Source: a virus (lineage: Duplodnaviria > Heunggongvirae > Uroviricota > Caudoviricetes). From it: a stretch of DNA of 15,689 nucleotides. The stretch lies in the IMG/VR virus record IMGVR_UViG_3300029009_000076. The stretch is one strand, 5' to 3'. Below the pieces are notes generated by a model. The model searched no databases. It worked only from the letters and a program-made list of their open reading frames with translations, and was not told the origin of the DNA. Position 1 is the stretch's first letter. Each line of letters starts with the position of its first letter. Below are positions 605 to 15,689 of this stretch, one piece after another. A program made the translations under genes and the position numbers.

Positions 605-820
605 TCATGAGTCTTTGATAAACTGATTTATCTTTGGATAGTTGTACCAGATAATCCCTCGTTTGCTGTCTGGCTTACCTAAAGGAGATACTCGTTTGAA
701 GTGGAAGCCCTCCACCCAACAGTTCTGGCGGTATGCTTCAATTTGTCTGGCCCCCAGACCAGTGCGAAGCATCAGGCCGTATTCAACCATCCACTCTTCA
801 TTAAAGATTACTTGTGCCAT
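605..820 (-). CDS. xisR: Excisionase-like protein, 71 aa
   Basis: Protein [32 protein letters not shown]... recognised as Rac YdaQ/XisR; stop TGA (605-607) lies 1 nt from the int start codon. The ORF track extends the start to 844; the internal ATG at 820 matches the 71-aa form. Confidence 0.7.
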
Positions 821-898
821 CGCATCACCTCTGGCAGGCGCCAATGTTAGACTGAAATTGACGCCCGATGTTGATTATTAATAATCAGCTATGAAGTT

Positions 899-1108
899 TT
901 AATTTGAATACAATGCAATTCTCGAGGACTGAAGTTTCTCGCAATTAAAATTTATCAGTTTTACTTTCTGCTCTCTGGAAACGCCTGCTTCTTTTTTACC
1001 TGAGAGCATTTTTTCGCATTCTGATTTCGTTAGTTTAGATTTTGAATATCTTGTCCAGTTAGTAGGAGTGCCACCTTCCTTTTCAATAGTGGCGGTAATT
1101 TTATACAT
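899..1108 (-). CDS. ydaC: Small Rac protein YdaC-like, 69 aa
   Basis: MYKITATIEKEGGTPTNWTRYSKSKLTKSECEKMLSGKK... recognised as YdaC; start ATG at 1108-1106 overlaps the 3' end of ralR by 8 nt. Confidence 0.65.
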   Translation of the reverse strand: MYKITATIEKEGGTPTNWTRYSKSKLTKSECEKMLSGKKEAGVSREQKVKLINFNCEKLQSSRIALYSN

Positions 1109-1295
1109 GAACACCTCCATTATTATTTCCAGTGGTTCGTTTATTCCATCTTTCGAGTGCTTCTTTTTCACTTCCACCATAACCGGTTCGGGATTCGCAT
1201 CCGTTACACTTCGCTCGGTAATATCCTGAAATGGCTTTCACCGTTACTGATGGACAACCACAAAATGGACATGGTTTAACATTGTCATATCTCAT
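1101..1295 (-). CDS. ralR: Restriction-alleviation protein / type I toxin RalR (Lar family), 64 aa
   Basis: MRYDNVKPCPFCGCPSVTVKAISGYYRAKCNGCESRTGYGGSEKEALERWNKR... has the Cys-rich Lar-type motif; start ATG at 1295-1293. Confidence 0.8.
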   Translation of the reverse strand: MRYDNVKPCPFCGCPSVTVKAISGYYRAKCNGCESRTGYGGSEKEALERWNKRTTGNNNGGVHV

Positions 1296-1351
1296 AATTT
1301 TTCTCATAAAAAATATTTCAAGTTGGCGGTGCATTACACCGCCAGGCTGAA

Positions 1352-2161
1352 TTATTCCTCTGAATTATCGATTACACTGTATTCCCCGGTTAATACAGAG
1401 GAATCTGCAGGATCGATTGTCAGTGGTTCCTTTTCATCCATTGATACTGCACGCTGGATCTCAATTGATACGGGCAGATATTTGAACAGGCGACGAATAG
1501 CCGTTTTCTTTGCCATTTCTTCCCAGTGAGTTACCCACGGCCCGTTATTACCAGCTTTACTCAGGCTGCGCACCAGCTCAATCTGTTTGCGCGTCATAAC
1601 TTCAAACTGAGTACCTCCGTCTTTCAGTCTTGCGACAGCATAGACGTGGGTAACCGGGGCATCTTCGTTTTCTCCCGGGCGGTGTATTAACTTTTCATCA
1701 AGGCCAAATTCGAAGCTAAACTCGTCACCTTCACGGACAACACGGGCTGACAGGCTGGCGATTTGACCAGAACGGCGAGCCAGATCAATCATGCCGCGAT
1801 AGCCAATGATTAGCTGAACGTTCTTTTTACCGCTCTTTTCGTTTTTATTACCAAAAGGCAGTAAATATGCATGACCGAGGGCGCTACCTGGCTCAAGTCC
1901 GAGCTGTGAACACTGTACGATCGCACTGACAAAACTCATAGTGTCACAGTTTCCTAACGCCGGAACTTTACGAATTTCTGTGGTGGCGATACGGATCATA
2001 CGTTCAGCCGTCATATGGCGTGGAAGAGCTGCTGCCAGTTGCTCTTTCATTGATGGCTGGTTAATAAAACTAATCACGTCGCTATTTTTAACTGCTGCTG
2101 GTGCACGGTTTCCCTGAGTTTTTTGCAGATCGGCTTTTGCGATTGGTGGTTGCTTAGTCAT
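1352..2161 (-). CDS. recT: Recombinase RecT (single-strand annealing protein), 269 aa
   Basis: Protein from [24 protein letters not shown]... recognised as RecT; start ATG at 2161-2159 overlaps the recE stop by 8 nt. The ORF track's upstream extension to 2218 is not used. Confidence 0.9.
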
Positions 2162-4754
2162 TTGCATATTCCTTAGCCCAGCGGGGCAGTGATAATGTCT
2201 TAATAGCTGGCCATTCATCGGTATTCAGGCAGTCAGACAGGGTTCGCAGATTGCGGTGATATTCCTGTTGACCTGCCAGTTTTGCTTCTTCGCCCATCAT
2301 GAAAATTTCAACCGGATAACGTCCGCATTCAATAGTTGTGCTGGCAACCAGAAAAACGAAAGTTGGCTGCACTCCAAACTGTGCTTCATAACCGTCACTG
2401 TAGAATGCATCCTGAACGTGATAGCGGTAGTCGTAATAAGCGGTTTTGAATCGTTGAATATCCGCCGTAGTTTTCACGTCCATGATCCAGTGAAATTCAG
2501 GGATAATTTTGTCCGGACGGCACCGACACAAAATTCCTGTTTCAGGATCTTCCCAGTAAATTGATGATTCAGCGTGTCCGGCGCTTTCAACAAGCCATTG
2601 CCCCAGCGGCAAAGCCATAACGCTTTGATACATGAGTTCAATTTTCCGGCCTTCTTCCGCAGTGATAACCGTTTTTCCTGTGCTTGCGCATTCCATCAGA
2701 AACGCTTTCTCTTCTTCTTTTCCGGCGTTTGTACGGCGGTTAAATTCAGGTGCTACGATAAAGCGGTTACTGAATTCTTCCGGTTCAAGTACCCGGCAGT
2801 GGAAAGCAGTTCCTAAATCGAGCGTTTTTGTCTTTGTGGTGTCCACGGGGGCATTTTTACGCCACAAATATAGTGCCGGAGTATCAGCAATGTCATCGAG
2901 CTGAGACTTACTGATACCGGGACCCGCGTGGTAATTCTCATTCGAAATTCCGTAATAAATACCTGGCTCTATGTCTTCTACGATTACGGGATCTGCGACT
3001 TCGCCAGTTTCATCACTGCAATCGCGATGCGGATCGCTGCCAGCATTCTCATTGTGCGGATGTTCAGCGCCTTCCATTTCCTCCGGATCATTTTCCTTAG
3101 CTTCAACCTGACTCTCTTCATCGAATGTTTCCTGGTATGTTGCGTCGCCCATCACCGCACCACAGTCAGGGCAGTTATCCCCGCCAGTCTGGCCGCAGGC
3201 ATTGCAGGCTATTTCCGGTTCCTGTTGCACTACTGGCTCAGGTTGATTCATATCTGGGCTGGTTTTTTCCGTTTCTGGCTGGTTCTGGTACACACAATCG
3301 CGAGTCTGGATCCCCTTTACCCATTTCGGATCGTTCGGGTCGCTAATTCCGTCAACAAATTCACCACGTGATGCAGCAAGCAATTTATCGGCATCGACAG
3401 GATTTTTTGATGGAATGTTTTTCCGGGCTTCATGGAGTTCTGCCCGCAGTTCCTGATATTTCGCATCAACAGAATTTACCTGTGACTGAGCATCCAGCGG
3501 CTGCGTGTCCTGATGATGTTCAGTTGCGTCCGGTTCCATTGTTTCAGCCTCTCCCTGTTCAACTGCCGTTGTTCCAGATGGTTGCGGTTTTTCTTCATCA
3601 TCCTGTTTTCCTTCTTCTGTTACTCGCTGCGGCATCGGGGCAGAGGAGCGACCGCAGGCAATATCCACGATTTCCGGATCAGGGTTGGCATGATCGGTTT
3701 CAGTCAGTACTTTGTTCAGATATTCAGTGACGTGCGCGGGGATGACCTCGATCCCAATTGGTGCTTCTTTTACGGACGCAACCACGATGGCGCGGGAATA
3801 ATCCAGCCCGCCAGGCATGGTGATGAATTTGTCGCGGAAAACAGAAAAGGGCGGTTTATTTTCAGCGATAATTTCCTCAATGCGTTTAGCGTGTGCCGGA
3901 TGAAGGTTATAGATGTCCAGATCCATTGAACGGGCCAGTACGCCAGTGGCTACGTCGCGCGCCAGTGACGTCAGATCGTGTACGAAACCTTCGCCGCGAT
4001 CGGTGAGGTTTCCGCCGCCAGCATTAGCACCGGAAGCCGTGCGAGTGATGTGTGAAACACGATTACCCTTCATCCACTCTTTTGTCAGCAGTCCTCGATC
4101 GGTGTAGTCAGCGTTCAGGTATGCTTCGAAAAAAGCAGTTATCAGTCCCAGGTTTGAATTACCAGGATTAGGGAAAACTTTGTCAGTGTCACGAACCAGT
4201 TTGTGGAGTTCGCGAATTTCCAGCGGGTCGAGCAGGCTGGTTTTGTGGGAAACAGCCAGGGCAGTAACAGCCGGTAGTTCTTCAGCCCGAGCAATGTGTA
4301 ATGCCTGGAGTCCGTCGCGTGAAACGTGCGTTACCGGTTTTTCGCTGCCGTGTTGAGCAAGCCAACGAATGGGCAGTTCCTGGCCAGAAATTGGGAGTAG
4401 CATATTCTCCTCAATCTCAGTCATGTCTTCGCCGTTGACGTTGGTATTGCCTTGATAGTGAGCGTTGTCTGGTGCTGCTCCCGGTTTTAGTTCCCATGTC
4501 ATGGAGTCTTTGCTGAGTTGATAGCGTTCACTCCAGGTAAAATCGATCTCACCTTCAGCGGGCAGGTCATTAACGACAGGAAAATTCGTGGCAACAGCTT
4601 TAAAATAGCTGCTCAGTTTTTTACCTGACTTAACGATCAGGTAGTCCAGAGTGGCACAGGTCGATTCAAAATCGTTGCTTGCCCACAGGACGACGTCAGG
4701 TTCACCGGATGATTTTTTCGCTTTCCGTAACAGGAAGAGTGGTTTTGTGCTCAT
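2154..4754 (-). CDS. recE: Exodeoxyribonuclease VIII RecE, 866 aa
   Basis: Full 866-aa [32 protein letters not shown]...; acidic central region and C-terminal nuclease domain as in RecE; sits directly upstream of recT in one operon. Confidence 0.9.
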
Positions 4755-4825
4755 TGTTTTTTAACCTCAACTCAGATTAAAATTCGTTTTGTTCAGTGAA
4801 TGATCTTGCCGGATACACACTGTTC

Positions 4826-4857
4826 ATAGCCTGCGCCATACGCAGGCTATTTCTTTC
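4826..4857 (+). terminator. Intrinsic-terminator-like hairpin oriented on the plus strand, between recE and racC
   Basis: Perfect 10-bp stem ATAGCCTGCG / CGCAGGCTAT with 5-nt loop (4826-4850) followed by TTCTTTC; the T-tract is only on the plus-strand side. Confidence 0.4.
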
Positions 4858-5131
4858 AGATTTCACCTTTTAATTTCATTGCAATTAGAGTTGCCAGAAA
4901 TTCGGCTTTTTTTTCTGCGGGCAGATTCTTTCCGATATGCACCAGGCACATTTTTTTGACACCTTCATCAAGTGTTTTTACGTTGCCTGATGGACCATCG
5001 ATATCAACCACAGTGAATGGGGTTTCTTTATTTTCTGTTTTAATTACGTAGCCAATGCGCTTTCCTTCCAGATTCACCTCGTGAACAATGTCATCGGTAG
5101 TTACAACAGTGGCTTCATAATTGGTAATCAT
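4856..5131 (-). CDS. racC: RacC, 91 aa
   Basis: MITNYEATVVTTDDIVHEVNLEGKRIGYVIKTENKETPF... recognised as RacC; ATG at 5131-5129 is preceded (on the minus strand) by AAGGAG. The ORF track's longer start at 5179 is not used. Confidence 0.75.
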   Translation of the reverse strand: MITNYEATVVTTDDIVHEVNLEGKRIGYVIKTENKETPFTVVDIDGPSGNVKTLDEGVKKMCLVHIGKNLPAEKKAEFLATLIAMKLKGEI

Positions 5132-5205
5132 GTTTTTCTCCTTAATTAAGGTTGAGCGAATACCTGCCATTTCTGGCATAAATTCAGTTTCGAATAGTCA
5201 ATTAA

Positions 5206-5376
5206 TTAAAGTTCATGTGCCATCTGGTCTTTTTCGGCACAAGCTTCACTGCAATATTTTCTCGGTTCGTCTTTTGATAAAATCCCGTGCATGAAGTGAA
5301 GCATTCTTTCAATAGCTTTGCTTTCTTCAACGTCTTTTTTGCAAAGGTGGTAAGCACATTTTATTTTCTTAGTCAT
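5206..5376 (-). CDS. ydaE: Small Cys-rich (probable zinc-binding) protein YdaE, 56 aa
   Basis: Not in the ORF track (too short). Reverse-strand translation [56 protein letters not shown]; start ATG at 5376-5374 shares 1 nt with the kilR stop. Confidence 0.7.
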   Translation of the reverse strand: MTKKIKCAYHLCKKDVEESKAIERMLHFMHGILSKDEPRKYCSEACAEKDQMAHEL

Positions 5377-5597
5377 CACCATGACTCCGCCTTTACAGGT
5401 AAACCATCACGACCGAGGAAGACTTTAATCATGCGGTCAGTAATGCATGTTTTTGTGGTCAGGTTACGAATATATAGTTTTCGCTTTTTAATATTGTTTG
5501 CCGAGGCAATATATGTCCGGCCTTCATGAAGAACATAATCGCCAGGAGTCACACACTGACGTGGTATTTCATCAGTTCCGAAGTGATGTGCAATCAT
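5376..5597 (-). CDS. kilR: KilR, cell-division (FtsZ) inhibitor toxin, 73 aa
   Basis: [46 protein letters not shown]... recognised as KilR; GGAGA Shine-Dalgarno upstream of ATG 5597-5595. Confidence 0.8.
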
Positions 5598-6038
5598 AAT
5601 TATCTCCATTTTTACAAATGAACTTTGTTGATGCGGTGCCTGGTGCCTCCAGGTGACTGCAACCAGTTAACAATTACAGTCGGCTTTCCCACCCAAACCA
5701 ATAAGGACTAACATGACTTTTAACTGTGCCACGTGCGCTTAGCCGCATTCACCGCATCACAAAATTCACTTTAAAAAGGGCGGACATCAGCCGAACTTCA
5801 AGAAAAAAACTGATGCCGCCAGGACTACACACAGCAATGTCGTTATTTACAACCGGAGGCGCACTCCCACCATTTAAATTTAACAGACAAGACCGACTCT
5901 TTATGGATATCGGAAATGCGCCTTCGTGTTGTGCCCGGTTTTATTTCACCACCTCCGGGCTTCGGTGGTCTCGGCTATACCCCTACAGCGAGAGCTTGTG
6001 TTAACATTTCAATACCCTTACAGTTGAGAGTTATTGAT

Positions 6039-6527
6039 ATGTTGGATGTATTTACTCCATTGTTGAAACTTTTTGCTAACGAGCCACTCGAAAGACTTAT
6101 GTATACGATTATCATTTTTGGTCTCACTCTCTGGCTGATACCGAAAGAGTTTACTGTCGCATTCAATGCTTATACTGAAATACCTTGGCTCTTTCAGATT
6201 ATCGTTTTTGCCTTTTCTTTCGTGGTCGCCATTTCCTTCTCAAGATTGCGAGCGCATATTCAAAAGCATTATTCATTACTACCAGAGCAACGAGTATTGC
6301 TTCGTTTATCTGAGAAAGAAATCGCTGTATTTAAAGATTTCCTTAAAACAGGAAATCTTATTATCACTTCTCCTTGCCGTAACCCGGTTATGAAAAAATT
6401 AGAACGGAAGGGCATCATTCAACATCAGAGTGATAGCGCAAACTGTTCTTATTATCTCGTCACCGAAAAATACTCCCATTTTATGAAGTTATTCTGGAAC
6501 AGCAGGAGTAGACGTTTTAATCGTTAG
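6039..6527 (+). CDS. sieB: Superinfection exclusion protein SieB, 162 aa
   Basis: MLDVFTPLLKLFANEPLERLMYTIIIFGLTLWLIPKEF... with hydrophobic N-terminal helices; ATG at 6039. The ORF track's upstream extension from 5916 is not used. Confidence 0.8.
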   Translation: MLDVFTPLLKLFANEPLERLMYTIIIFGLTLWLIPKEFTVAFNAYTEIPWLFQIIVFAFSFVVAISFSRLRAHIQKHYSLLPEQRVLLRLSEKEIAVFKDFLKTGNLIITSPCRNPVMKKLERKGIIQHQSDSANCSYYLVTEKYSHFMKLFWNSRSRRFNR

Positions 6528-6679
6528 CTTACTGTGTGCTTCTCCAACCATCGGCGCGCACCAGTTTCGGTTTTAAATGTTTTGCTTTTGGTATACGTCA
6601 TGGCAGTGAACGTTCCATCCTGGTTGGGGAACACGCCGCACACCAGGGATTCGTTGTTGCCGAGGTCGATTTTTTGCAT
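6524..6679 (-). CDS. ydaF: Small Rac protein YdaF-like, 51 aa
   Basis: Not in the ORF track. Reverse translation MQKIDLGNNESLVCGVFPNQDGTFTAMTYTKSKTFKTETGARRWLEKHTVS; GAGGTG Shine-Dalgarno before ATG 6679-6677; 3' end overlaps the sieB stop convergently. Confidence 0.6.
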   Translation of the reverse strand: MQKIDLGNNESLVCGVFPNQDGTFTAMTYTKSKTFKTETGARRWLEKHTVS

Positions 6680-6689
6680 TTTTCGCACC

Positions 6690-6824
6690 TCACATCTTGT
6701 TGTTGCGGATAGAGGCTTCTGCTTGCCAGAGATCCCAGTCGTTGCTACGTAAAGCCTGCACAGCCGGGCTGTAAGTGATACCGCAACAATCCATCAAATA
6801 CTGAACTACTTCGTAATGCACCAT
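6690..6824 (-). CDS. ydaG: Small Rac protein YdaG-like, 44 aa
   Basis: C-terminal 44 aa of ORF 6690..6983: MVHYEVVQYLMDCCGITYSPAVQALRSNDWDLWQAEASIRNNKM; GGGGAGAGA Shine-Dalgarno before ATG 6824-6822. Confidence 0.6.
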   Translation of the reverse strand: MVHYEVVQYLMDCCGITYSPAVQALRSNDWDLWQAEASIRNNKM

Positions 6825-6840
6825 CTTATCTCTCCCCTTA

Positions 6841-7242
6841 ACGCCGGGTATATGGACCATCTGTCGTGGTGCCACAATGGTGGATGGTAAGCCCGTCATA
6901 CCGGGAATGAGGCTGTCGAAGGAAAAATGCGACCAGGTTAACGCTATTGAACGTGATAAGGCGCTGGCATGGGTGGAGCGCAATATTAAAGTACCACTGA
7001 CCGAACCACAGAAAGCGGGTATAGCGTCATTTTGTCCCTATAACATTGGCCCCGGTAAGTGTTTCCCGTCGACGTTTTATAAGCGGCTGAATGCCGGTGA
7101 TCGTAAGGGTGCATGCGAGGCGATTCGCTGGTGGATAAAAGATGGTGGGCGCGATTGCCGCATACGTTCAAATAACTGCTATGGACAGGTTATTCGTCGT
7201 GACCAGGAAAGCGCATTAGCCTGTTGGGGGATAGATCAGTGA
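6841..7242 (+). pseudogene. 5'-truncated phage lysozyme-type endolysin (R-like); roughly the N-terminal 40 aa, including the likely catalytic/SAR region, are missing
   Basis: Frame is open from 6817; the part ...PGIWTICRGATMVDGKPVIPGMRLSKEKCDQVNAIERDKALAWVERNIKVPLTEPQKAGIASFCPYNIGPGKCF...ACWGIDQ aligns by eye to lambdoid prophage lysozymes (RrrD-like), but no N-terminal region or plausible start is present; stop TGA 7240-7242 overlaps the Rz start. Confidence 0.65.
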
Positions 7243-7703
7243 GCAGAGTCGCCGCGATTATTTATGCTCTGGTTATCTGCATCATCGTCTGCCTGTCATG
7301 GGCTGTTAATCATTACCGTGATAACGCCACCGCCTACAAAGAGCAGCGCGACAAAAATGCCAGAGAACTGAAGCTGGCGAACGCGGCAATTACTGACATG
7401 CAGATGCGTCAGCGTGATGTTGCTGCGCTCGATGCAAAATACACGAAGGAGTTAGCTGATGCGAAAGCTGAAAATGATGCTCTGCGTGATGATGTTGCCG
7501 CTGGTCGTCGTCGGTTGCACATCAAAGCAGTCTGTCAGTCAGTGCGTGAAGCCACCACCGCCTCCGGCGTGGATAATGCAGCCTCCCCCCGACTGGCAGA
7601 CACCGCTGAACGGGATTATTTCACCCTCCGGGAACGACTGGTAATGATGCAGGCCCAACTTGAAGGTGCTCAGCAATACATAACCGAACAGTGTTTAAAG
7701 TAA
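7239..7703 (+). CDS. rzpR: Rz-type i-spanin (inner-membrane spanin), about 154 aa, apparently intact
   Basis: [60 protein letters not shown]... is near-identical in pattern to lambda Rz; likely GTG start at 7239 overlapping the endolysin stop (the track offers TTG at 7224). Confidence 0.8.
7459..7644 (+). CDS. rzoR: Rz1-type o-spanin lipoprotein, 61 aa, embedded in the +1 frame of Rz
   Basis: [52 protein letters not shown]...: signal peptide with lipobox ...VVGC and a proline-rich mature part; AAGGAG Shine-Dalgarno at 7446-7451. Confidence 0.8.
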
Positions 7704-7840
7704 AATCTTAACTACAATATGATTCATTTTGATGATTGTTTCATAAGGAACAGTGAAGTAAGATCTAAGAGGAGTTAAATTTTATACAGTATAATCATAA
7801 TATTGCAGCAAGGTGGTTATAATTGAAAGAATATTTAGAT

Positions 7841-9298
7841 ATGAATACATCTCATGTAAGAGTTGTTACTCATATGTGTGGGTTCCTGGTTTGGCTCTAT
7901 AGTCTTTCAATGTTGCCACCAATGGTTGTAGCATTGTTTTATAAAGAAAAAAGCCTATTCGTTTTCTTTATAACTTTCGTTATATTTTTTTGCATTGGTG
8001 GCGGAGCGTGGTATACAACTAAGAAATCTGGCATTCAATTACGTACCCGTGATGGGTTTATTATAATTGTAATGTTTTGGATTTTGTTTTCTGTTATTAG
8101 TGCATTCCCTTTATGGATTGACTCAGAACTTAATTTAACGTTCATTGATGCTCTGTTTGAAGGGGTTTCTGGAATAACAACAACAGGAGCAACTGTAATT
8201 GATGATGTTAGTTCATTACCTCGGGCATATTTGTACTATCGGTCACAGTTAAATTTTATAGGTGGTTTAGGAGTTATTGTTCTGGCGGTTGCTGTATTGC
8301 CATTATTGGGTATTGGTGGTGCAAAGCTTTATCAGTCAGAAATGCCGGGGCCATTTAAGGATGACAAACTCACTCCCCGCCTGGCCGATACGTCACGGAC
8401 ACTGTGGATAACTTATTCTTTATTAGGTATTGCTTGTATTGTCTGTTATAGACTTGCAGGAATGCCTTTGTTTGATGCTATTTGTCACGGGATTTCCACA
8501 GTTTCGCTTGGTGGTTTCTCAACTCATAGCGAGAGTATCGGATATTTTAATAACTATTTGGTTGAGCTGGTGGCTGGTTCTTTTTCCCTGCTATCGGCTT
8601 TCAACTTCACTCTTTGGTATATTGTTATTAGCAGGAAAACGATAAAACCTTTAATCAGAGATATTGAACTTCGTTTCTTTCTGTTAATAGCCTTAGGGGT
8701 GATCATTGTTACCTCTTTCCAGGTCTGGCATATAGGTATGTATGACTTGCATGGAAGTTTTATTCATTCGTTTTTTCTTGCCAGCTCCATGCTCACTGAT
8801 AATGGTTTAGCTACGCAGGATTATGCAAGCTGGCCCACGCACACGATAGTGTTTTTGCTGTCGTCAAGTTTCTTTGGGGGATGTATAGGTTCAACTTGTG
8901 GTGGAATTAAGTCACTTCGATTTCTTATACTTTTCAAACAAAGCAAACACGAGATAAATCAGCTTTCTCATCCCAGAGCGTTGTTGAGTGTAAATGTAGG
9001 AGGGAAGATAGTTACAGATCGTGTAATGAGGTCTGTATGGAGTTTCTTTTTTCTTTATACTCTCTTCACGGTGTTTTTTATACTGGTGTTAAATGGTATG
9101 GGATATGATTTTCTTACATCATTTGCAACAGTGGCTGCATGTATTAATAATATGGGATTAGGTTTTGGGGCTACTGCATCGTCATTCGGAGTGCTTAATG
9201 ACATTGCAAAATATTTAATGTGCATAGCTATGATTCTTGGTCGCCTTGAAATTTATCCTGTTATTATATTGTTTTCAGGTTTTTTTTGGCGCTCCTAA
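7841..9298 (+). CDS. trkG: Potassium uptake protein TrkG (TrkH/TrkG family), 485 aa; prophage moron
   Basis: MNTSHVRVVTHMCGFLVWLYSLSMLPP... is a polytopic membrane protein recognised as TrkG; gene and flanks are visibly AT-rich compared with neighbouring phage genes. The track's TTG start at 7823 is an alternative (see findings). Confidence 0.85.
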   Translation: MNTSHVRVVTHMCGFLVWLYSLSMLPPMVVALFYKEKSLFVFFITFVIFFCIGGGAWYTTKKSGIQLRTRDGFIIIVMFWILFSVISAFPLWIDSELNLTFIDALFEGVSGITTTGATVIDDVSSLPRAYLYYRSQLNFIGGLGVIVLAVAVLPLLGIGGAKLYQSEMPGPFKDDKLTPRLADTSRTLWITYSLLGIACIVCYRLAGMPLFDAICHGISTVSLGGFSTHSESIGYFNNYLVELVAGSFSLLSAFNFTLWYIVISRKTIKPLIRDIELRFFLLIALGVIIVTSFQVWHIGMYDLHGSFIHSFFLASSMLTDNGLATQDYASWPTHTIVFLLSSSFFGGCIGSTCGGIKSLRFLILFKQSKHEINQLSHPRALLSVNVGGKIVTDRVMRSVWSFFFLYTLFTVFFILVLNGMGYDFLTSFATVAACINNMGLGFGATASSFGVLNDIAKYLMCIAMILGRLEIYPVIILFSGFFWRS

Positions 9299-9384
9299 TA
9301 TATGGCTGATTTATAATTGTGAGTTTAATATTATATTGACTCACTCATTGATCCAATACCTAACTTTACCAGCAACACCTCCGC

Positions 9385-9420
9385 CCCCAGTAGCACTGGC
9401 TGCTGGGGTGCGTTTTATTC
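9385..9420 (+). terminator. Putative intrinsic terminator downstream of trkG
   Basis: 10-bp stem (9385-9394 / 9399-9408, one G-U pair) with 4-nt loop, followed by TGCGTTTTATTC. Confidence 0.45.
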
Positions 9421-9435
9421 ATAAAGCAAGGCTGT

Positions 9436-10224
9436 ATGAGCGAGAAATTAAAGATAGTCTATCGCCCATTACAAGAATTGTCACCGTATGCGCACAACGC
9501 CAGGACGCACAGTACTGAGCAGGTGGCACAACTGGTAGAAAGTATTAAGCAATTCGGCTGGACTAATCCGGTGCTGATTGACGAAAAGGGCGAAATTATT
9601 GCGGGTCACGGTCGTGTTATGGCGGCTGAAATGCTCAAAATGGATTCTGTTCCGGTCATTGTTCTGTCTGGCCTGACGGATGAGCAGAAAAAGGCGTACC
9701 GCCTGGCAGATAATCGCCTACCAATGAATGCTGGCTGGGATGAAGATCTGTTGCGGATGGAGCTGTCGGACCTAATCAATGCTGATTTTGATGTCTCCCT
9801 GACAGGCTTCGGCCCGACAGAAATTGATGAACTGTTGACGGATGTTTTGCCCGGTACAGGAAATAAGGAGGAGCCGTATACGACGAAAATTGATACGCCT
9901 GTTTATGAGCCGTCGGGCGGTAAACCGGATATCAGTGAACTGTACGACGATACGAAAACTCAGGAGCTGATCAGCCGGATACGTTCGGCGTCCCTTGATC
10001 CTGATATTGAGAAATTCCTCCTGTGTGCGGCAGAACGTCACACGGTGTTTAATTTCAGCAGAATTGCGGACTATTACGCTCATGCCCCCGCTGAAATTCA
10101 GTGCCTTTTCGAGGAGTCGGCGCTGGTGATCATTGATTATCAGCAGGCTATTGAAAATGGATTTGTCCGAATGACGCAGCGCATGGTGGCGATCATGCAT
10201 AGCGGGGAGGAGGAATATGCGTGA
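9436..10224 (+). CDS. ParB/Srx-like nuclease-domain protein, 262 aa (apparent full-length counterpart of the short K-12 Rac ynaK)
   Basis: N-terminal region IVYRPLQELSPYAHNARTHSTEQVAQLVESIKQFGWTNPVLIDEKGEIIAGHGRVMAAEMLKMDSVPVIVL has the ParB N-terminal domain pattern (GHGR in the position of the ParB arginine box); the C-terminal half is of unknown type; stop overlaps the next gene's start. Confidence 0.7.
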   Translation: MSEKLKIVYRPLQELSPYAHNARTHSTEQVAQLVESIKQFGWTNPVLIDEKGEIIAGHGRVMAAEMLKMDSVPVIVLSGLTDEQKKAYRLADNRLPMNAGWDEDLLRMELSDLINADFDVSLTGFGPTEIDELLTDVLPGTGNKEEPYTTKIDTPVYEPSGGKPDISELYDDTKTQELISRIRSASLDPDIEKFLLCAAERHTVFNFSRIADYYAHAPAEIQCLFEESALVIIDYQQAIENGFVRMTQRMVAIMHSGEEEYA

Positions 10225-11149
10225 TGATTTTTGCGCCTTTATTCTGACTCACGGGCGACCGGACAAAGTTCTGACTTACCGGACGTTGCGTCGTGCTGGC
10301 TATACCGGGAAAATTTTTATCGTTGTTGATGATGAAGATAAGACACGGCATCAGTACATGGCTGAATTTGGTGAACAGGTGCTGGTATTTTCCAAAGCCG
10401 ATATTGCCAGTCGTTTTGACGAAGCCGATAATTTTGGTGACCGCCGCTCAATTTTTTACGCCCGTAATGCCTGTTTCGACCTGGCAAAACTGGTCGGGTG
10501 TAAATACTTCATTCAGCTCGATGATGATTATCACGAGTTCCAGTTTCGGGTGGATCGCAACTATGACCAGGCCTATTTCCCGATAAGGAAACTGGATGCG
10601 ATCCTTTCTGAAATGCTGGCGTATTACGAATCAATACCCGCGCTTTCCATCGCTATGTCGCAGGGCGGGGATTTTCTTGGTGACAATGGCGGCCATGCTT
10701 CGTGGGTGAAACGCAAGGCAATGAACAGCTTTATCTGTTCGGTTGATCGACCGTTCTCATTCATGGGGCGCATTAACGAGGATGTGAATACGTACACGAA
10801 TCTCGGTCGCCGTGGTGAATTGTTTATGACGATCGGTGCTGTCCAGTTAGGGCAGAAACAGACGCAGAAAAACAGCGGCGGAATGACCGAGCTGTATCTG
10901 GATTCCGGGACCTACGTTAAAAGTTTTTATTCCGTCATGTATGCGCCGTCGTGCGTAAAAATCTCACTGATGGGCGCCAGCCATAAACGCATTCACCATC
11001 AGGTCACCTGGAACAACGCTGCAGTAAAAATCCTTCACGAAAAATACAGGAAGAAGACACCCTGCATATTAATGGGGGTGACAAATGATTCCGTATTCGA
11101 AAGTCGAGTCTCTGGCAGCGTGCCGGATGACTGCACAACAAATCGCTGA
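10217..11149 (+). CDS. Hypothetical protein, 310 aa, with GT-A-like glycosyltransferase motifs (tentative)
   Basis: Strong Shine-Dalgarno GGGGAGGAGG at 10204-10213; start ATGCGTGA overlaps the ParB-like stop. Motifs FCAFILTHGRPD ... GKIFIVVDDED ... KYFIQLDDDYHEF resemble the N-terminal strand, acidic strand and DxD motif of GT-A-fold nucleotide-sugar transferases. No methyltransferase or PP-loop motifs seen. Confidence 0.55.
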   Translation: MRDDFCAFILTHGRPDKVLTYRTLRRAGYTGKIFIVVDDEDKTRHQYMAEFGEQVLVFSKADIASRFDEADNFGDRRSIFYARNACFDLAKLVGCKYFIQLDDDYHEFQFRVDRNYDQAYFPIRKLDAILSEMLAYYESIPALSIAMSQGGDFLGDNGGHASWVKRKAMNSFICSVDRPFSFMGRINEDVNTYTNLGRRGELFMTIGAVQLGQKQTQKNSGGMTELYLDSGTYVKSFYSVMYAPSCVKISLMGASHKRIHHQVTWNNAAVKILHEKYRKKTPCILMGVTNDSVFESRVSGSVPDDCTTNR

Positions 11150-11336
11150 CGTTCTGGATGTTGATCTGAACCGACTGAAAGAAAATCGGGAAGCAATGAC
11201 AAATTTTTACGCGTCCATCCGTAAGGGCAGAGCGAAAGGTGAAGCCGAGCTACGGGCGGCATTGTTTAAGCTTGCCAGAAAAGGGGATGCCTTTGCCCTG
11301 CGCGAACTACTCAGGGTGGATAAAAATCAGGACTAA
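11085..11336 (+). CDS. Small helix-turn-helix-like protein, 83 aa (possibly DNA-packaging associated)
   Basis: GGGGGTG Shine-Dalgarno before ATG 11085; segment MTAQQIADVLDVDLNRLKENR looks like an HTH; overlaps the 3' end of the upstream gene; lies directly upstream of the terminase genes. Confidence 0.45.
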   Translation: MIPYSKVESLAACRMTAQQIADVLDVDLNRLKENREAMTNFYASIRKGRAKGEAELRAALFKLARKGDAFALRELLRVDKNQD

Positions 11337-11470
11337 CTGATGAGCAGACCGGACTGGGGGGCGTTGCAGCAGGAGTATATTGCTGAATACACCCGCTCCG
11401 GTATATCTCCGGTGGCATGGTGTGAAGCAATCAGTACCAGAAACGCTATACCGCAGACCTGGATTTACTG

Positions 11471-12049
11471 GTGAGTCAGTTGATGGCCATTGTCCAGGCC
11501 GACCCCAATCAGTTGGCACAATTTCGCCGTGTTAACTGCCGTTATTGCTGGGGCGAGAATCATCACTACCAGTGGCGCGATATAGCAGAATTCGATAAGG
11601 CAGCGGCGCAGGCCTCCAGAGATGGCAAACCCGAGCCGGAATATGGTGGCCTTGGCTTTGTTGATAACGCCATACCCAATCCGGACTGCCCGAAGTGCTG
11701 CGGTGAGGGAACGGGGCAGCTTTATATGGCTGATACCACTCTGCTTGATGGGGAAGCGCGGCAATTATATGCAGGGGCAAAGCTCGGAAAATTTGGTGTT
11801 GAGATCCTGCTGGAGGATAAGGCTGCCGCCCGGCGTGAATTGTTGCGTTTGCTTGCTGCTGGTGGGGCTTTATGTGCAGATAAGCGGCTACAGGAACTGG
11901 AAATTGAACGGCGCAGAATGGAAAACCAGAAGCTGCGCAAAGAGATCGAAACGGTGGAAGATAATGAACATCCCCAACCTGTGGCGATCAATATTAATGT
12001 GGTTGATGCCAGAGTAAGGAGTGATGAAGATGATCTCTCCGACGCTTAA
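11471..12049 (+). CDS. Putative terminase small subunit, 192 aa as given in the ORF track (possibly the 3' part of a frame-disrupted gene)
   Basis: Position immediately upstream of, and overlapping, the terminase large subunit; Cys4 cluster (CRYC ... CPKCC) and charged coiled-coil-like C-terminus (LQELEIERRRMENQKLRKEIE). The only start is GTG; the frame is open from 11426 and a 44-aa ATG ORF (11340-11474) overlaps in another frame. Confidence 0.5.
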   Translation: MSQLMAIVQADPNQLAQFRRVNCRYCWGENHHYQWRDIAEFDKAAAQASRDGKPEPEYGGLGFVDNAIPNPDCPKCCGEGTGQLYMADTTLLDGEARQLYAGAKLGKFGVEILLEDKAAARRELLRLLAAGGALCADKRLQELEIERRRMENQKLRKEIETVEDNEHPQPVAININVVDARVRSDEDDLSDA

Positions 12050-13049
12050 TGTGCCTCAGGCGCGATTTCTTTCAATGCCCCATAAATTTAAAGCCTATAT
12101 TGCTGGTTTTGGCTCGGGCAAAACATGGGTTGGGTGTGGCGGCATATGCAAGGGGATTTGGGAGCATCCAGGTATAAATCAGGGATATTTTGCGCCAACG
12201 TATCCCCAAATTCGCGATATTTTTTACCCTACAGTGGAAGAAGTTGCTGCTGACTGGGGATTGAACGTAAAAATTAATGAGGGAAATAAAGAGGTTCACT
12301 TTTATTACGGACGCCAGTATCGGGGAACCACTATCTGCAGATCGATGGAGAAGCCACAAACGATCGTCGGTTTCAAAATTGGTAATGCGTTGGTGGATGA
12401 ACTGGACATTTTGCCGAAGGAAAAAGCCAGAACGGCGTGGCGCAAGATAATTGCGCGTATGCGTTATAAGATTGATGGACTTCGCAACGGTATTGACGTT
12501 ACAACCACGCCGGAAGGATTCAAATTTGTCTACGAGCAGTTTGTTAAAGCCGTGCGTGAAAAAACAGAGCTGGCCTCACTGTATGGTCTGGTGCAGGCAT
12601 CTACTTTCGATAATGAAAAGAACCTGCCAGCAGATTACATTCCTTCGCTTCTTGAATCATACCCTCCAGAGCTGATTAAAGCCTATCTGCGAGGACAGTT
12701 TACTAACCTGACAAGTGGTACTGTTTACCATCAGTTTGACCGGAAACTGAATAATTGCGAAGAAGTGGAGCAGCCAGGGGAGCCGATTTATATTGGGATG
12801 GATTTTAACGTTGGAAAGATGGCGGGAATCGTCCATGTGCTGCGTTTGGGGCTTCCATGTGCGGTAACTGAAATCATCAATGCCTACGATACGCCGGATA
12901 TGATCCGCATCATTAAAGAACGCTTCTGGCCGTATGACGGGCATGATTACCGGAAAGTGAGGGAGATTTATATTTATCCAGATGCTTCCGGAGATTCCAG
13001 AAAATCAAGTAACGCAAGTACGACGGATATACCCGGATCGCAACAGTAA
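12030..13049 (+). pseudogene. Terminase large subunit, ATPase domain only; truncated at the start of the nuclease domain
   Basis: Walker A AGFGSGKT and Walker B-like ALVDELDIL; AAGGAG Shine-Dalgarno at 12016-12021; the ORF ends after IYIGMDFNVGK... at about 340 aa, whereas full-length large terminases have a C-terminal nuclease domain beyond this point. Confidence 0.7.
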
Positions 13050-13741
13050 GCGGTAATACATCCCTTATAACAGCCAAAGCTGAACAACAGGGCGAGTGGA
13101 CCTACTATGAGGCCACTTATACAGCTAATACGGACATTGATACCGTTAACTGTGCTTTTTATATGACAAATAAAATAAGTAATGAGCCATTCTATGATGA
13201 CTCAACATTAACCATGACGACGCCGCAAATTGAACTGGGCAATACGGCATCGTCATTTATTGTAACTACAATGCCAACAACACGCGCAAGTGATGTGGTT
13301 ACTATCCCCTCGGCGAATAACCTGTCAACACGGCCTTTTACAGTATTGTGCGAAGTAAGGAGGAACTGGAGTACACCGCCCAATGTTGCGCCAAGGATAT
13401 TTGATGTTGGAGGGCACAGTATTGATGATAATTATTTATCGCTGGGGTTTGTTTCAACAGGAAAGATAAGCGCCAACGTAGGAATGGTTCAGCCACAAAT
13501 TTCCTCAGATGGAGAAAGGTTCATTGTGGGTGTGAGAGCTAAATCTGATTTATCAGTAAATGCAATATGCAATGGTAATTATACAACAAACCTTAATGGT
13601 AAAATATTTGGAGTTACAGCAACATCGTACCGGTTTGGTGGGCAGACCGCAGCAGGAACGCGTCATTTGTTTGGACACATCAGAAATTTCAGAGTCTGGT
13701 TTAAAGAATTAAATGACAGGCAAATCAAGGAGGCAGTATGA
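13013..13741 (+). pseudogene. Phage tail / tail-fibre protein, 3' fragment
   Basis: Frame is open from 13013 with no plausible start (the track's ATG at 13163 is internal); Thr/Ser/Asn/Gly-rich beta-type sequence ...TYYEATYTANTDIDTVN ... GKIFGVTATSYRFGGQTAAGTRHLFGHIRNFRVWF...; position corresponds to the Rac tail-protein remnant. Family assignment is weak. Confidence 0.45.
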
Positions 13742-14016
13742 AAGATTTAACTTTGAAATTTCCTGGTAACAGAGAGTTTAAATCCTTCCTGTCATCTCTT
13801 GACTGGGAGGAAGATGAAGACCTCCAGAATAAACTGTTAGTCGATGAAATTGGTTTCACCTACACAGAAACAGGGGTAACTGAAGAGGGAGAACCTGTCT
13901 GTATCCGGAATAACGGTTATTTTGTCAACATTCGCATTCTTGATGACTTGTTTGATGTTTCTGTATTCTCTGATTATGTCGTGGAGCTGGAAACACCGCT
14001 TCGGGAATGGAGCTGA
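13738..14016 (+). CDS. Hypothetical acidic protein, 92 aa
   Basis: AAGGAGG Shine-Dalgarno at 13727-13733; ATGA overlap with the end of the tail-fragment frame; no recognisable motif. Confidence 0.5.
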   Translation: MKDLTLKFPGNREFKSFLSSLDWEEDEDLQNKLLVDEIGFTYTETGVTEEGEPVCIRNNGYFVNIRILDDLFDVSVFSDYVVELETPLREWS

Positions 14017-14028
14017 AAGGAGGAAATA

Positions 14029-14322
14029 ATGGATATAAGCCCCTTACTTCATGCACTTTGTGCTGTGGCTGCGCAGATACTGGTTGGTCTTTTTACCGGA
14101 AACTGGGCTTACGGAGCGATAGCCGGTTGTACGTTCTTCATTGCGCGTGAACATACCCAGGCAGAATATCGCTGGATTGAAATGTTCGGGCATGGCAAGC
14201 GAATGAATATGCCGTGGTGGGGCGGTTTTGATCCGCGCGCGTGGGATGTGGCAAGCCTGATGGATTTTGCTGTGCCGGTGGTGGCGTGTCTGCTGGTCTG
14301 GCTGTTGGTTAATCGTGGGTGA
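14029..14322 (+). CDS. Hypothetical small membrane protein, 97 aa, two or three predicted transmembrane segments
   Basis: Near-consensus Shine-Dalgarno AAAGGAGG at 14016-14023; hydrophobic stretches [34 protein letters not shown] and [18 protein letters not shown] with a Trp/Arg-rich loop between. Confidence 0.6.
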
Positions 14323-14329
14323 AAAAAGG

Positions 14330-14452
14330 TGGGCTGTATATGCAACGGAGGAAGAAACCTCGTTGCTGGAAGCATGGAAAAAGTATCGGGTATTGCTGAA
14401 CCGTGTTGATACGTCAACTGCACAGGATATTGAATGGCCAGCACTGCCGTAG
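14330..14452 (+). pseudogene. Tail fibre assembly protein (Tfa), 3' remnant of about 40 codons
   Basis: ...[39 protein letters not shown] matches the conserved C-terminus of lambdoid Tfa proteins as I recall it; no N-terminal part or start codon; begins immediately after the membrane-protein stop. Confidence 0.6.
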
Positions 14453-14548
14453 GGTAAAACATATAAATTCTATAATTAGATGTATCTTTCCATTTACGGC
14501 AAGGAAGGGGGCTTGGAAGACGTAAAGCATCTCACACCGAGATTATTT

Positions 14549-15139
14549 TTATATGTCAGGTGTCTGAAGTTTTGCTTTGGCTCTTAAAATGGTTTGCCGC
14601 GAGGTTTTGAATTCCCGGGCAATGGCACTTATACTTACACCTGACTTAATTCGTTCGAATACCACCTGTTTCTGTTCTTCATTTAACACAGGTGGTCGAC
14701 CAAAACGTTTCCCTGCGCCGCGGGCTCTTACTATCCCGGAATGAGTGCGTTCAAGTAAAAGGTCTCGTTCAAATTCAGCGACTGCTGAAATTACTTGCAT
14801 CATCATTTTTCCTGTTGGACTGGTCAGGTCAATGCCCCCCAATGCTAAGCAATGCACTCTGATACCTGTTTCGGTCAGTTGTTCCACTGTTTTCCTGATA
14901 TCCATTGCATTACAACCAAGGCGATCCAATTTTGTCACAATCAATTGATCACCACATTTCAGGCGAGCAAGCAACCGGTTAAAACCAGGACGCTCACTGG
15001 TTGCTGCTGAGCCACTAATGTGTTCTTCGATTATTTGCTGAGGTTTGATTTTAAAACCTGCACTTTCGATTTCCCGGCGTTGATTTTCGGTGGTCTGATC
15101 CAGCGTTGATATCCGACAGTAAGCAAAAATTTGAGACAT
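14549..15139 (-). CDS. pinR: Serine recombinase / DNA invertase Pin, 196 aa
   Basis: [29 protein letters not shown]... with catalytic Ser in the YCRIST motif and a C-terminal HTH; recognised as PinR. Confidence 0.9.
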
Positions 15140-15455
15140 AGTGAGACTCTATACGAAATTGGTGTTCATATCATAATGCATCTCAGAAAATAATTATGAT
15201 TATTTTTGTGCATATTTGTATGTACACGTTCGAAAATAAACGAATGCGTATGCAACCCCGTAATTTTGGTGAGACCCAAAATCGATTTTGTGAAAAATGG
15301 CTTTAACTCGGTTTGTTTTTCGAGTTCCGGGCGGACTCAAGGAAGAAGAATAGTGTTGCGTGTTATTTTAACCAGATTTCAAGTTGTTTGGTCGTGGAAA
15401 AGTGGAGCAAAATGTTGTTAAAGTGGAAAAATGATAAAAAAGTAAGTTTATTATA

Positions 15456-15689
15456 TTACATTTTACCATTTAAATTTTGGTTGTCTTTAAGAACTGATAT
15501 CGCTGTTTGTAATAATTCTTTGTTATCCAGCCATGATTTTTTCTTTATGTTTCCTTCAATGTAATCAAGCAATGTTCTGGTATTGATAGGTCTTCCCTGT
15601 TTTGCTACTTCCACTACAGCATCCCCTAGGATAATTCTTACTTCAGGAAGCTGCGCAGGGAACCACTTTAGGGTGTCTTTTGATTTCAT
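15456..15689 (-). CDS. ynaE: YnaE/YdfK-family small prophage protein, 77 aa; start codon at the window edge
   Basis: MKSKDTLKWFPAQLPEVRIILGDAVVEVAKQGRPINTRTLLDYIEGNIKK... recognised as YnaE/YdfK-like; ATG at 15689-15687. Confidence 0.65.
   Translation of the reverse strand: MKSKDTLKWFPAQLPEVRIILGDAVVEVAKQGRPINTRTLLDYIEGNIKKKSWLDNKELLQTAISVLKDNQNLNGKM

What the first reader, a model, noticed from the sequence alone, without database searches (positions are those of the whole stretch)
12980..13060. Second deletion junction: terminase large subunit truncated and abutted to a tail-protein 3' fragment
The large terminase reading frame stops at 13049 just after the start of its nuclease domain, while a different frame carrying tail-protein-like sequence opens at 13013. 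Portal, capsid, head-completion and most tail genes are missing, so the element cannot package DNA or build particles.
Basis: partly seen in the sequence, partly recalled or inferred. Interest (0 to 1): 0.4.

Follow-up and report, generated by a model that had tools for sequence, protein, structure and literature searches.

The report
Deletion scar in cryptic prophage Rac
This is an ordinary deletion scar in the defective Rac prophage of E. coli: about 20 kb of head and tail genes were lost, leaving three quarters of the DNA-packaging enzyme gene butted out of frame against the last third of a tail-fibre gene.

Summary
The window is a Rac-type cryptic prophage. The large terminase gene (12030-13049) matches full-length 433-aa homologues only through residue 334, at base 13031. 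It then reads five foreign codons (PGSQQ) and stops. From 13029 onward the DNA is identical to codons 439-674 of the 674-aa side tail fibre of E. coli B REL606, in a different frame that opens at 13013. The two homologies overlap by 3 nt (ATA, 13029-13031).

An intact relative (strain EC100) carries about 19.7 kb between these two points: portal, head, tail tube, tape measure, tip and J genes. All of them are absent here. The junction is not an assembly artefact, because independent metagenome assemblies carry it, two of them 100% identical to the window. None of 5,426 complete E. coli genomes has it.

One correction: the break lies mid-way through the nuclease domain, not just after its start. 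The small terminase gene is also broken, at 11427-11430.

One point is unexplained. BL21(DE3)'s own Rac deletion ends at the same base of the tail-fibre gene.

This is ordinary prophage decay and of low interest.

The parts
11340..11474 (+). terS' N-terminal remnant: 30 native codons, then a frameshift
   Evidence: The start corresponds to the ATCC 8739 terS start at L001 5529. Homology is lost at 11430.
11427..11430 (.). terS deletion junction with a 4-nt overlap (GCAA). 385 bp are missing relative to ATCC 8739.
   Evidence: Window 11430 corresponds to L001 5619 and window 11427 to L001 6001. 385 is not a multiple of 3.
11471..12049 (+). terS' C-terminal frame (residues of about 160-364 of the 364-aa TerS)
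   Evidence: It hits PHROG 51 and 29114, terminase small subunit C-terminal part. It is collinear with L001 up to 6623.
12030..13049 (+). terL': truncated large terminase, 334 native residues plus PGSQQ and a stop. The ATPase domain is intact and the nuclease domain is cut in half.
   Evidence: Pfam Terminase_6N at 24-238, E 2e-33, with no Terminase_6C hit. The full-length protein has Terminase_6C at 255-417.
13029..13031 (.). Deletion junction. The 3-nt microhomology ATA is shared by terL (codon Ile334) and stf (nt 1313-1315).
   Evidence: Base-by-base comparison with ATCC 8739 terL and REL606 stf.
13029..13741 (+). stf': 3' fragment of the side tail-fibre gene (REL606 Stf residues 439-674). 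The frame is open from 13013 and the first ATG is at 13163.
   Evidence: 100% DNA identity to L004 from 13864 to 14576. 236/236 aa identical. Hits PHROG 1419 tail protein, plus GTA_spike_fiber and Laminin_G_3 partial domains. The 192-aa ORF equals BL21 ECD_01342.
13738..14016 (+). 92-aa ORF that accompanies this stf type
   Evidence: PHROG 1361, full length. Annotated as a hypothetical protein in REL606 and BL21.
14029..14322 (+). 97-aa ORF that accompanies this stf type
   Evidence: PHROG 1443, full length. Annotated as a hypothetical protein in REL606 and BL21.
14342..14452 (+). Tail fibre assembly gene 3' fragment (tfa')
   Evidence: The REL606 pseudogene at L004 15177-15287 maps here. A Caudo_TAP hit falls on the equivalent called gene.
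14549..15139 (-). pinR serine invertase gene, next to the tail-fibre remnant
   Evidence: REL606 and BL21 annotate it as pinR. Resolvase and HTH_7 hits on the identical gene in L006.

Best explanation
The site is the scar of an illegitimate, homology-independent deletion inside a Rac-type lambdoid prophage of E. coli. One event, or a few successive ones, removed about 19.7 kb. The lost DNA runs from codon 335 of the large terminase gene to codon 438 of the side tail-fibre gene. The ends were joined at a 3-nt microhomology (ATA).

The lost genes are the last 99 codons of terL (half of its RNase H-like nuclease domain), portal, minor head protein, scaffold, major capsid, head-tail connectors, tail terminator and tube, the chaperone region including ydaY, tape measure, M/L/K/I tip proteins, J, lom, and the first 437-438 codons of stf.

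The two remnants are out of frame with each other. The only new coding is five codons (PGSQQ) before a stop. The stf remnant has no start codon of its own until an internal ATG at 13163.

This element also carries a frameshifted terS and a deleted holin and lysozyme 5' region. It therefore cannot cut, package or encapsidate DNA or build tails. It persists as a chromosomally inherited cryptic prophage that still carries intR/xisR, recET, ralR/RalA, kilR, sieB, trkG and pinR.

What is shown: both gene identities, the base-level breakpoint, the missing gene set, and the presence of the allele in independent samples. What is inferred: the joining mechanism (replication slippage or end-joining at microhomology), that it was a single event, and the loss of function, which was not assayed.
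For: 1. The terL homology ends at 13031 and the stf homology starts at 13029, overlapping in ATA.
2. Full-length TerL is 433 aa with Terminase_6N and Terminase_6C. The window's copy loses the Terminase_6C hit and diverges after residue 334.
3. The downstream frame is 236/236 identical to Stf 439-674 of REL606, whose N-terminus is phage_tail_N. It also hits a PHROG tail protein, C-terminal profile positions only.
4. The intact relative EC100 has 18,393 nt, with every gene in it annotated as head, tail or accessory (portal through lom), between the terL break and the stf start. Adding 1,312 nt of stf gives about 19.7 kb. Phage record ON470595 shows the same gene order.
5. The allele is real and inherited. 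The exact 339-aa product is recorded on 7 contigs. L007 and L008 are 100% identical to the window and L006 is 99.91% identical with 12 SNPs. NCBI assembly GCA_049554575.1 has the same layout.
6. The window's other two junctions also sit on short overlaps, GGT and GCAA. By my own calculation from the standard (k+1)(1/4)^k(3/4)^2 distribution, an overlap of 3 nt or more is expected at only about 5% of random joints. Three of three therefore points to microhomology use.
7. Reviews state that cryptic prophages decay mainly by deletion and preferentially lose capsid, lysin and terminase genes (PMC13492144).
Against: A 3-nt overlap alone is weak evidence for any particular joining mechanism. One deletion cannot be told apart from several nested ones, because no intermediate allele was found. 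The right endpoint coincides to the base with that of BL21(DE3)'s independent Rac deletion. A purely random illegitimate event does not predict that. Loss of function is inferred from gene content, not tested.
Confidence: 0.9

Rival explanations
1. The deletion is real but not random. Its right end lies at a deletion-prone site in stf: the loop of the quasi-palindrome GATCTGG-ATAC-CCGGATC, or a site cut by some nuclease or recombinase. Independent deletions therefore end at the same dinucleotide.
For: BL21(DE3) has its own 2,542-bp Rac deletion (REL606 L004 11321 to 13864). Its right endpoint (overlap AT) is the same base as the window's right endpoint (overlap ATA). Both are compatible with a crossover in the same AT. 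The two left partners are unrelated, terL in one case and a minor-head-gene remnant in the other. The ancestral B strains (REL606, ATCC 11303) are intact at the site. With roughly 20 kb of possible endpoints, agreement within 3 nt by chance is of the order of 1e-4 by my own estimate, made post hoc. The site folds as a 7-bp hairpin with the endpoint in its loop. A second recurrent endpoint exists in Rac relatives, at a Chi site in the portal gene.
Against: There are only two events. The hairpin is weak: -4.4 kcal/mol, z -2.07, and 8 of 200 shuffles fold as well. No gix/hix/pix-like invertase site is present even with 3 mismatches allowed. No convincing inverted-repeat partner was found. No Chi site lies nearby. 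No third junction type was seen among 520 intact complete genomes, 26 metagenome copies and 11 IMG/VR copies.
Confidence: 0.2
2. The junction was not formed in this lineage. It arose elsewhere and was brought in as an allele by homologous recombination through the flanking Rac sequences, so the window is a mosaic of an ATCC 8739-like left part and an E. coli B-like right part.
For: Window 6847-13031 differs from ATCC 8739 by 2 SNPs. Window 4-9666 and 13029-15689 differ from REL606 by 1 SNP and 1 indel. Yet the three alleles differ by five or more large deletions that are not nested. L006 carries the same junction with 10 SNPs clustered around trkG, which looks like recombination around a conserved scar.
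Against: This concerns only where the scar was made, not what it is. An illegitimate joining event is still required. The near-identity of all three alleles makes the direction of transfer undecidable.
Confidence: 0.35
3. Assembly artefact: the junction is a chimeric join of two Rac fragments.
For: No complete E. coli genome (0 of 5,426) and no GTDB species representative carries the junction. Two ENA contigs with this stf fragment are clearly chimeric.
Against: The same junction, with the same two other deletions, occurs in independent assemblies from different samples and assemblers: ENA ERZ1741988 (a 32.6-kb contig at 170x that continues into uspF-ompN-nifJ), Logan SRR33018503 and ERR525877, and NCBI GCA_049554575.1. 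The chimeric contigs have a different boundary (L004 13903) and a palindromic EcoRI linker, which is absent here.
Confidence: 0.02
4. The 339-aa protein is a naturally complete or exapted terminase-derived ATPase, or recoding produces a TerL-Stf fusion.
For: The ATPase domain is intact, with Walker A GFGSGKT, Walker B LVDELD and TTT (read directly; Terminase_6N at full length). The ORF is preserved identically in several samples.
Against: The homologues inspected here are 433 aa with a complete nuclease domain. The last five codons are tail-fibre DNA read out of frame. TerS upstream is frameshifted. I saw no X XXY YYZ slippery heptamer in 13013-13047 (read directly). Divergence is too low to detect selection.
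Confidence: 0.03

Closest known systems
Cryptic prophage Rac of E. coli K-12 MG1655 (b1345-b1375)
   Same: The same element. The backbone intR-xisR-rcbA-ralR/RalA-recT-recE-racC-ydaE-kilR-sieB-ydaF-ydaG ... trkG-ynaK ... pinR-ynaE matches at about 99.3-99.7% identity. It is likewise unable to make particles because structural genes are deleted.
   Different: K-12 has no terS or terL at all. Its scars are ynaK'|ydaY and ynaA(tape measure)'|lomR, plus an IS5 in lomR. It keeps a complete 1,120-aa stfR and tfaR, and the racR-ydaW immunity and replication block. The window keeps full-length ynaK, the TAGT-like gene, terS' and terL', but lacks racR-ydaW, ydaY, the tape measure and lom. It carries only the last third of a different (B-type) stf.
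Rac of E. coli B (REL606 / ATCC 11303) and of BL21(DE3)
   Same: The flanks are virtually identical to the window: 1 SNP and 1 indel over 12.3 kb. It has the same B-type stf C-terminal module, the same 92-aa and 97-aa ORFs, tfa' and pinR. BL21's stf is truncated at the very same base.
   Different: REL606 has an intact 674-aa stf but lacks terS and terL. Its scars are ynaK'|minor-head-gene and capsid-gene'|stf-start. BL21 joins the minor-head remnant, not terL, to stf nt 1313, and has a recE deletion that the window lacks.
Apparently intact Rac-type prophages (E. coli EC100; phage record vB_EcoS-683R6, ON470595)
   Same: The order trkG-parB(ynaK)-TAGT-like-terS-terL is the same, and terL is 98% identical.
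   Different: They carry the full terS (364 aa), terL (433 aa) and the roughly 18.4-kb portal-to-lom morphogenesis block that is missing here. EC100's stf is the long K-12-like type.
T4-type large terminases (Pfam Terminase_6N and Terminase_6C)
   Same: The N-terminal packaging ATPase domain is complete.
   Different: The C-terminal RNase H-like nuclease domain is cut at residue 334, where the domain spans 255-417, so the protein is a fragment. From general knowledge of this fold, the third metal-binding acidic residue lies in the missing C-terminal part. This was not tested here.

Membership tests
Cryptic prophage Rac (E. coli) | Gene content and order of the Rac backbone: intR, xisR, ralR/RalA, recT, recE, kilR, sieB, trkG, pinR, ynaE | tested here: met
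   Collinear matches at 99.3% identity or better to K-12, and essentially 100% identity to REL606 Rac. The RalA sRNA scores 225 bits at 924-1102.
Cryptic prophage Rac (E. coli) | Chromosomal position between ttcA and uspF/ompN | tested here: met
   The right side is shown by contig L006, which carries the same allele and continues into ynaE-uspF-ompN-nifJ. The left side (ttcA) lies outside the window. It is inferred from REL606 and BL21, which match the window from the fourth base of intR onward.
Large terminase, Terminase_6 (T4-like) family | N-terminal ATPase domain with Walker A and B motifs | tested here: met
   PF03237 at residues 24-238, E 2e-33. GFGSGKT and LVDELD are visible.
Large terminase, Terminase_6 (T4-like) family | Complete C-terminal RNase H-like nuclease domain | tested here: not met
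   PF17289 spans 255-417 in the 433-aa homologue. There is no hit in the window's 339-aa product, whose native sequence ends at residue 334.
Lambdoid side tail fibre (Stf, phage_tail_N family) | N-terminal PF08400 tail-attachment domain | tested here: not met
   It is present at residues 3-132 of REL606 Stf. The window retains only residues 439-674.
Lambdoid side tail fibre (Stf, phage_tail_N family) | C-terminal distal region homologous to known tail fibres | tested here: met
   236/236 identity to REL606 Stf. PHROG 1419 tail protein, E 5.8e-74, profile positions 552-793 of 793.
Gin/Hin/Pin invertase-controlled tail-fibre switch | Serine invertase gene adjacent to the tail-fibre genes | tested here: met
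   pinR at 14549-15139 on the minus strand, with Resolvase and HTH_7 domains.
Gin/Hin/Pin invertase-controlled tail-fibre switch | A pair of inverted 26-bp gix/hix-type crossover sites flanking the variable segment, one of them at the stf constant/variable boundary | tested here: not met
   The consensus TTNTCNNAAACCNNGGTTTNNGANAA has 0 matches in the window with up to 3 mismatches. The best inverted repeat near the breakpoint is 29 nt at 76%, offset from the site, with its partner arm inside the 3' end of pinR.

The most novel reading that the evidence does not exclude
Nucleotide 1313 of the B-type stf gene lies in the loop of the short quasi-palindrome GATCTGG-ATAC-CCGGATC. It may be a genuine hotspot for illegitimate deletion, used independently in a wild E. 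coli lineage (this window) and in the laboratory lineage leading to BL21(DE3). Together with the Chi-adjacent recurrent endpoint seen in the portal gene of other Rac relatives, this would mean that prophage decay proceeds through a small set of mechanistically determined break sites rather than random ones.
Probability: 0.15. Interest if true: 0.4.

Novelty: already known. Interest (0 to 1): 0.12.

Why it matters
It matters little for biology at large. The finding documents one more decay allele of Rac, a textbook cryptic prophage, and confirms that this copy cannot form particles.

It has practical value for annotation. The genes at 12030-13049 and 13163-13741 should be flagged as pseudogene fragments of terL and stf, not as 'terminase' and 'hypothetical protein'.

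Two wider points are suggestive. Rac alleles that are nearly identical at the nucleotide level differ by many large deletions that are not nested. At least two deletion endpoints recur exactly in independent alleles. This would become interesting only if a population-scale survey showed true hotspots.

Tried and rejected
1. I searched for the junction in complete E. coli genomes with a 3.2-kb and a 201-nt query. None of 5,426 has it. An exact 30-mer search of the GTDB species representatives also found none.
2. I tested whether the stf site is a general mosaic boundary. It is not: 520 of 554 genomes carrying this stf are contiguous across it, and only the BL21 family is broken there.
3. I looked for a third independent junction at the same site, using an exact 33-mer from the right flank. 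All 26 metagenome loci and all 11 IMG/VR loci are intact.
4. Contexts of the 192-aa remnant ORF gave two odd ENA contigs (L053, L058). These are linker-mediated chimeras (GAGTAGAATTCTACTC) with a different boundary, so I discarded them.
5. PinR-mediated site-specific deletion: no gix/hix-like site and no credible inverted repeat.
6. Chi/RecBCD-defined endpoint: no Chi within kilobases of this junction on either partner. A Chi site does sit 4 nt from a different recurrent endpoint, in the portal gene of strains BKQWHE and LR-64-2.
7. Hairpin at the site: present but weak.
8. A PDB sequence search with the full TerL, meant to place catalytic residues, found no significant hit. Statements about catalytic residues therefore rest on Pfam domain limits and general knowledge.
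9. Promoter and terminator scan around the junction: no + strand promoter-like site for the stf remnant, and counts are below the shuffle mean.
10. I searched the literature for a published description of the BL21 Rac deletion. The relevant J Mol Biol 2009 comparison of REL606 and BL21(DE3) is not in the searchable library.

Full report
**What the window is.** The 15.7-kb window is a Rac-type cryptic prophage of E. coli. It runs from inside intR (1-603, minus strand) through xisR, rcbA, ralR/RalA, recT, recE, racC, ydaE, kilR, sieB, ydaF and a ydaG-like gene. It continues through a lysis-gene remnant, trkG, a full-length ParB-like ynaK, a TAGT-like gene, terS', terL', a tail-fibre 3' fragment, two small ORFs, tfa' and pinR, and ends in ynaE/ydfK. 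This rests on collinear matches at 99-100% identity to annotated Rac loci of E. coli B REL606, BL21(DE3), ATCC 8739, LR-64-2 and K-12 and on an Rfam hit to RalA.

**Checking the observation.** The ORF list and translations confirm the two frames. The terminase frame ends with a TAA at 13047-13049. A second frame opens at 13013, after a TAA at 13010-13012, and runs to 13741.

BLAST and base-by-base comparison place the breakpoint. Identity to the intact terL of ATCC 8739 is perfect up to 13031 (...GAC GGA TAT A). The next base is C in the window and G in terL. BLAST's extension to 13034 needs a 1-nt gap. Identity to the REL606 tail-fibre gene begins at 13029, which corresponds to L004 13864. 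The two homologies therefore overlap in ATA at 13029-13031.

In protein terms, TerL is native through Ile334 and is followed by PGSQQ and a stop. The second frame is 236/236 identical to residues 439-674 of the 674-aa REL606 protein. The two frames differ by one base, so no fusion protein is encoded.

**Identity of the two partners.** Full-length TerL is 433 aa in ATCC 8739, and EC100, BKQWHE, LR-64-2 and phage record ON470595 carry a terL CDS of the same 1,302-nt length. Pfam finds Terminase_6N at residues 24-238 and Terminase_6C, the RNase H-like nuclease, at 255-417. The window's 339-aa product keeps Terminase_6N and loses the Terminase_6C hit. The cut is therefore about half-way through the nuclease domain, not just after its start.

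The right-hand partner is the C-terminal 35% of a side tail fibre. The full REL606 protein begins with PF08400 phage_tail_N (E 7.8e-67). It carries a GTA_spike_fiber domain at 330-524, which the breakpoint bisects, and a ConA-like lectin domain at the C-terminus. The fragment hits PHROG 1419 'tail protein' only over profile positions 552-793 of 793. Terminases of about 340 aa in this family are not naturally complete, and the downstream frame is tail-related.

**What is missing.** E. coli EC100 carries an apparently intact Rac-type morphogenesis region. Its order is terS, terL, portal (DUF4055), minor head protein, DUF6651 scaffold-like protein, P22-type major capsid protein, five small proteins, tail terminator, tail tube, ydaY, a small ORF, tape measure, M, L, K, I, J, Lom, stfR and tfaR. 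The phage record ON470595 shows the same order.

Mapping the window onto EC100 gives 18,393 nt between the terL breakpoint and the stf start codon. Adding the 1,312 nt of stf that are absent gives a loss of about 19.7 kb. None of these genes is anywhere else in the window.

The element has two further defects. terS carries a 385-bp frameshifting deletion at 11427-11430 with a GCAA overlap. A 1,019-bp deletion at 6847-6849, with a GGT overlap, removes the holin essD, ydfR and the 5' end of the lysozyme gene. The inference that the element cannot package DNA or build particles is therefore well founded, although it was not assayed.

**Is it real?** No complete E. coli genome (0 of 5,426) and no GTDB species representative contains the junction. 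However, the exact 339-aa junction-specific protein is present in the 15-billion-protein collection, on 7 contigs. Contigs from Logan runs SRR33018503 and ERR525877 are 100% identical to the window across the junction. A 32.6-kb ENA contig (ERZ1741988, 170x) carries all three deletions, differs by 12 SNPs, and continues into the chromosomal genes uspF-ompN-nifJ. NCBI assembly GCA_049554575.1 has the same layout. It is therefore a genuine allele, inherited in natural lineages.

**Mechanism.** All three deletion joints in the window sit on overlaps of 3-4 nt. By my own calculation from the standard distribution, an overlap of 3 nt or more is expected at about 5% of random joints. Three of three therefore points to microhomology-assisted illegitimate recombination, either replication slippage or end-joining. 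There is no long repeat, no IS element, no invertase site, no Chi site and no tRNA at the joint. Whether the 19.7 kb went in one step or several cannot be determined.

The window differs from REL606 by 1 SNP and 1 indel over the 12.3 kb they share, and from ATCC 8739 by 2 SNPs over 6.2 kb. Yet the three alleles differ by five or more large deletions that are not nested. That fits either rapid deletional decay or shuffling of decay alleles by homologous recombination through the conserved flanks. Both are consistent with the literature on cryptic prophage erosion (PMC13492144) and on recombination involving Rac stf/tfa (PMC3945230).

**An unexplained coincidence.** BL21(DE3) differs from its sister strain REL606 by a 2,542-bp Rac deletion (L004 11321 to 13864) with an AT overlap. 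Its right endpoint is the same base of stf as the window's right endpoint, and both joints are compatible with a crossover in the same AT dinucleotide. The left partners are unrelated.

The site is the 4-nt loop of a quasi-palindrome (GATCTGG ATAC CCGGATC), but the hairpin is weak: -4.4 kcal/mol, z -2.07. The site is not a general mosaic boundary, since 520 of 554 genomes are intact across it. I found no third junction type there among 37 further metagenomic and viral copies. Two ENA contigs that looked like new contexts are linker chimeras. With two events, hotspot and coincidence cannot be separated.

A second exact recurrence exists in relatives. The portal gene is broken after ...GCTGGTGGACTA in both BKQWHE and LR-64-2, with different right partners. 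That point is 4 nt 3' of a correctly oriented Chi site. From general knowledge of RecBCD, this is where a Chi-attenuated end would be expected.

**Comparison with known systems and verdict.** This is cryptic prophage Rac, with a decay pattern different from that of K-12 (no terminase genes; ynaK'|ydaY and ynaA'|lomR scars; full stfR). It also differs from E. coli B, which has no terminase genes and a full B-type stf. The kind of feature, a deletion scar that leaves terL and stf pseudogene fragments, is entirely familiar, and identical sequence is already in public assemblies. I rate it as already known and of low interest. The only thread worth a follow-up is the possible recurrence of deletion endpoints.

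Noticed in passing
window 13029-13031; L004 (REL606) 13864-13866; L002 (BL21(DE3)) 14001-14002: BL21(DE3)'s own 2,542-bp Rac deletion has its right endpoint at exactly the same base of stf as the window's deletion, although the left partners are unrelated. The site is the loop of a weak quasi-palindrome, GATCTGG-ATAC-CCGGATC. No third independent junction was found there.
   Followed up: partly
window 11427-11430 (terS: 11340-11474 and 11471-12049): The small terminase gene is independently destroyed by a 385-bp frameshifting deletion relative to ATCC 8739, joined on a 4-nt overlap (GCAA). This is an additional deletion junction that the finding does not mention.
   Followed up: yes
window 6847-6849: A 1,019-bp deletion relative to REL606, joined on GGT, removes most of the holin gene essD, ydfR, a small ORF and the first 138 nt of the lysozyme gene. 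The racR-ydaW immunity and replication block of K-12 Rac is also absent, as it is in E. coli B.
   Followed up: partly
L003 (BKQWHE) about 8284 and L005 (LR-64-2) about 30680; no counterpart in the window: In two other Rac-type prophages the portal gene is broken at the identical base, ...GCTGGTGGACTA|, 4 nt 3' of a correctly oriented Chi site. The right partners differ: a tail-fibre fragment in one and sitB in the other. This suggests RecBCD/Chi-defined deletion ends.
   Followed up: partly
window 9436-10224 and 10217-11149: A full-length 262-aa ParB_N/YnaK protein is followed, with a 4-codon overlap, by a 310-aa protein. The latter hits Pfam PF20691 (TAGT) and PHROG 842, annotated beta-glucosyl-HMC-alpha-glucosyltransferase. 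This could be a DNA-modification or anti-restriction pair, intact here and in ATCC 8739 but cut away in K-12 and E. coli B.
   Followed up: no
whole window compared with L004 (REL606) and L001 (ATCC 8739): The window differs from REL606 by 1 SNP (2187) and one 1-nt indel (14545/6) over 12.3 kb. It differs from ATCC 8739 by 2 SNPs (9834, 11936) over 6.2 kb. The alleles nevertheless differ by several large deletions that are not nested, so deletions far outnumber substitutions or decay alleles recombine.
   Followed up: partly
L053 (ENA ERZ761545) 1069-2060 and L058 (ENA ERZ761554) 336-1272: Two metagenome contigs carry an E. coli B stf fragment starting at L004 13903, flanked on both sides by the palindromic EcoRI-containing sequence GAGTAGAATTCTACTC and unrelated chromosomal genes. 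These are probably linker-mediated chimeras in public assemblies.
   Followed up: partly
window 1-3: The first three bases of the window (TCA) do not match REL606 intR (CGG), although everything from base 4 on is identical.
   Followed up: no
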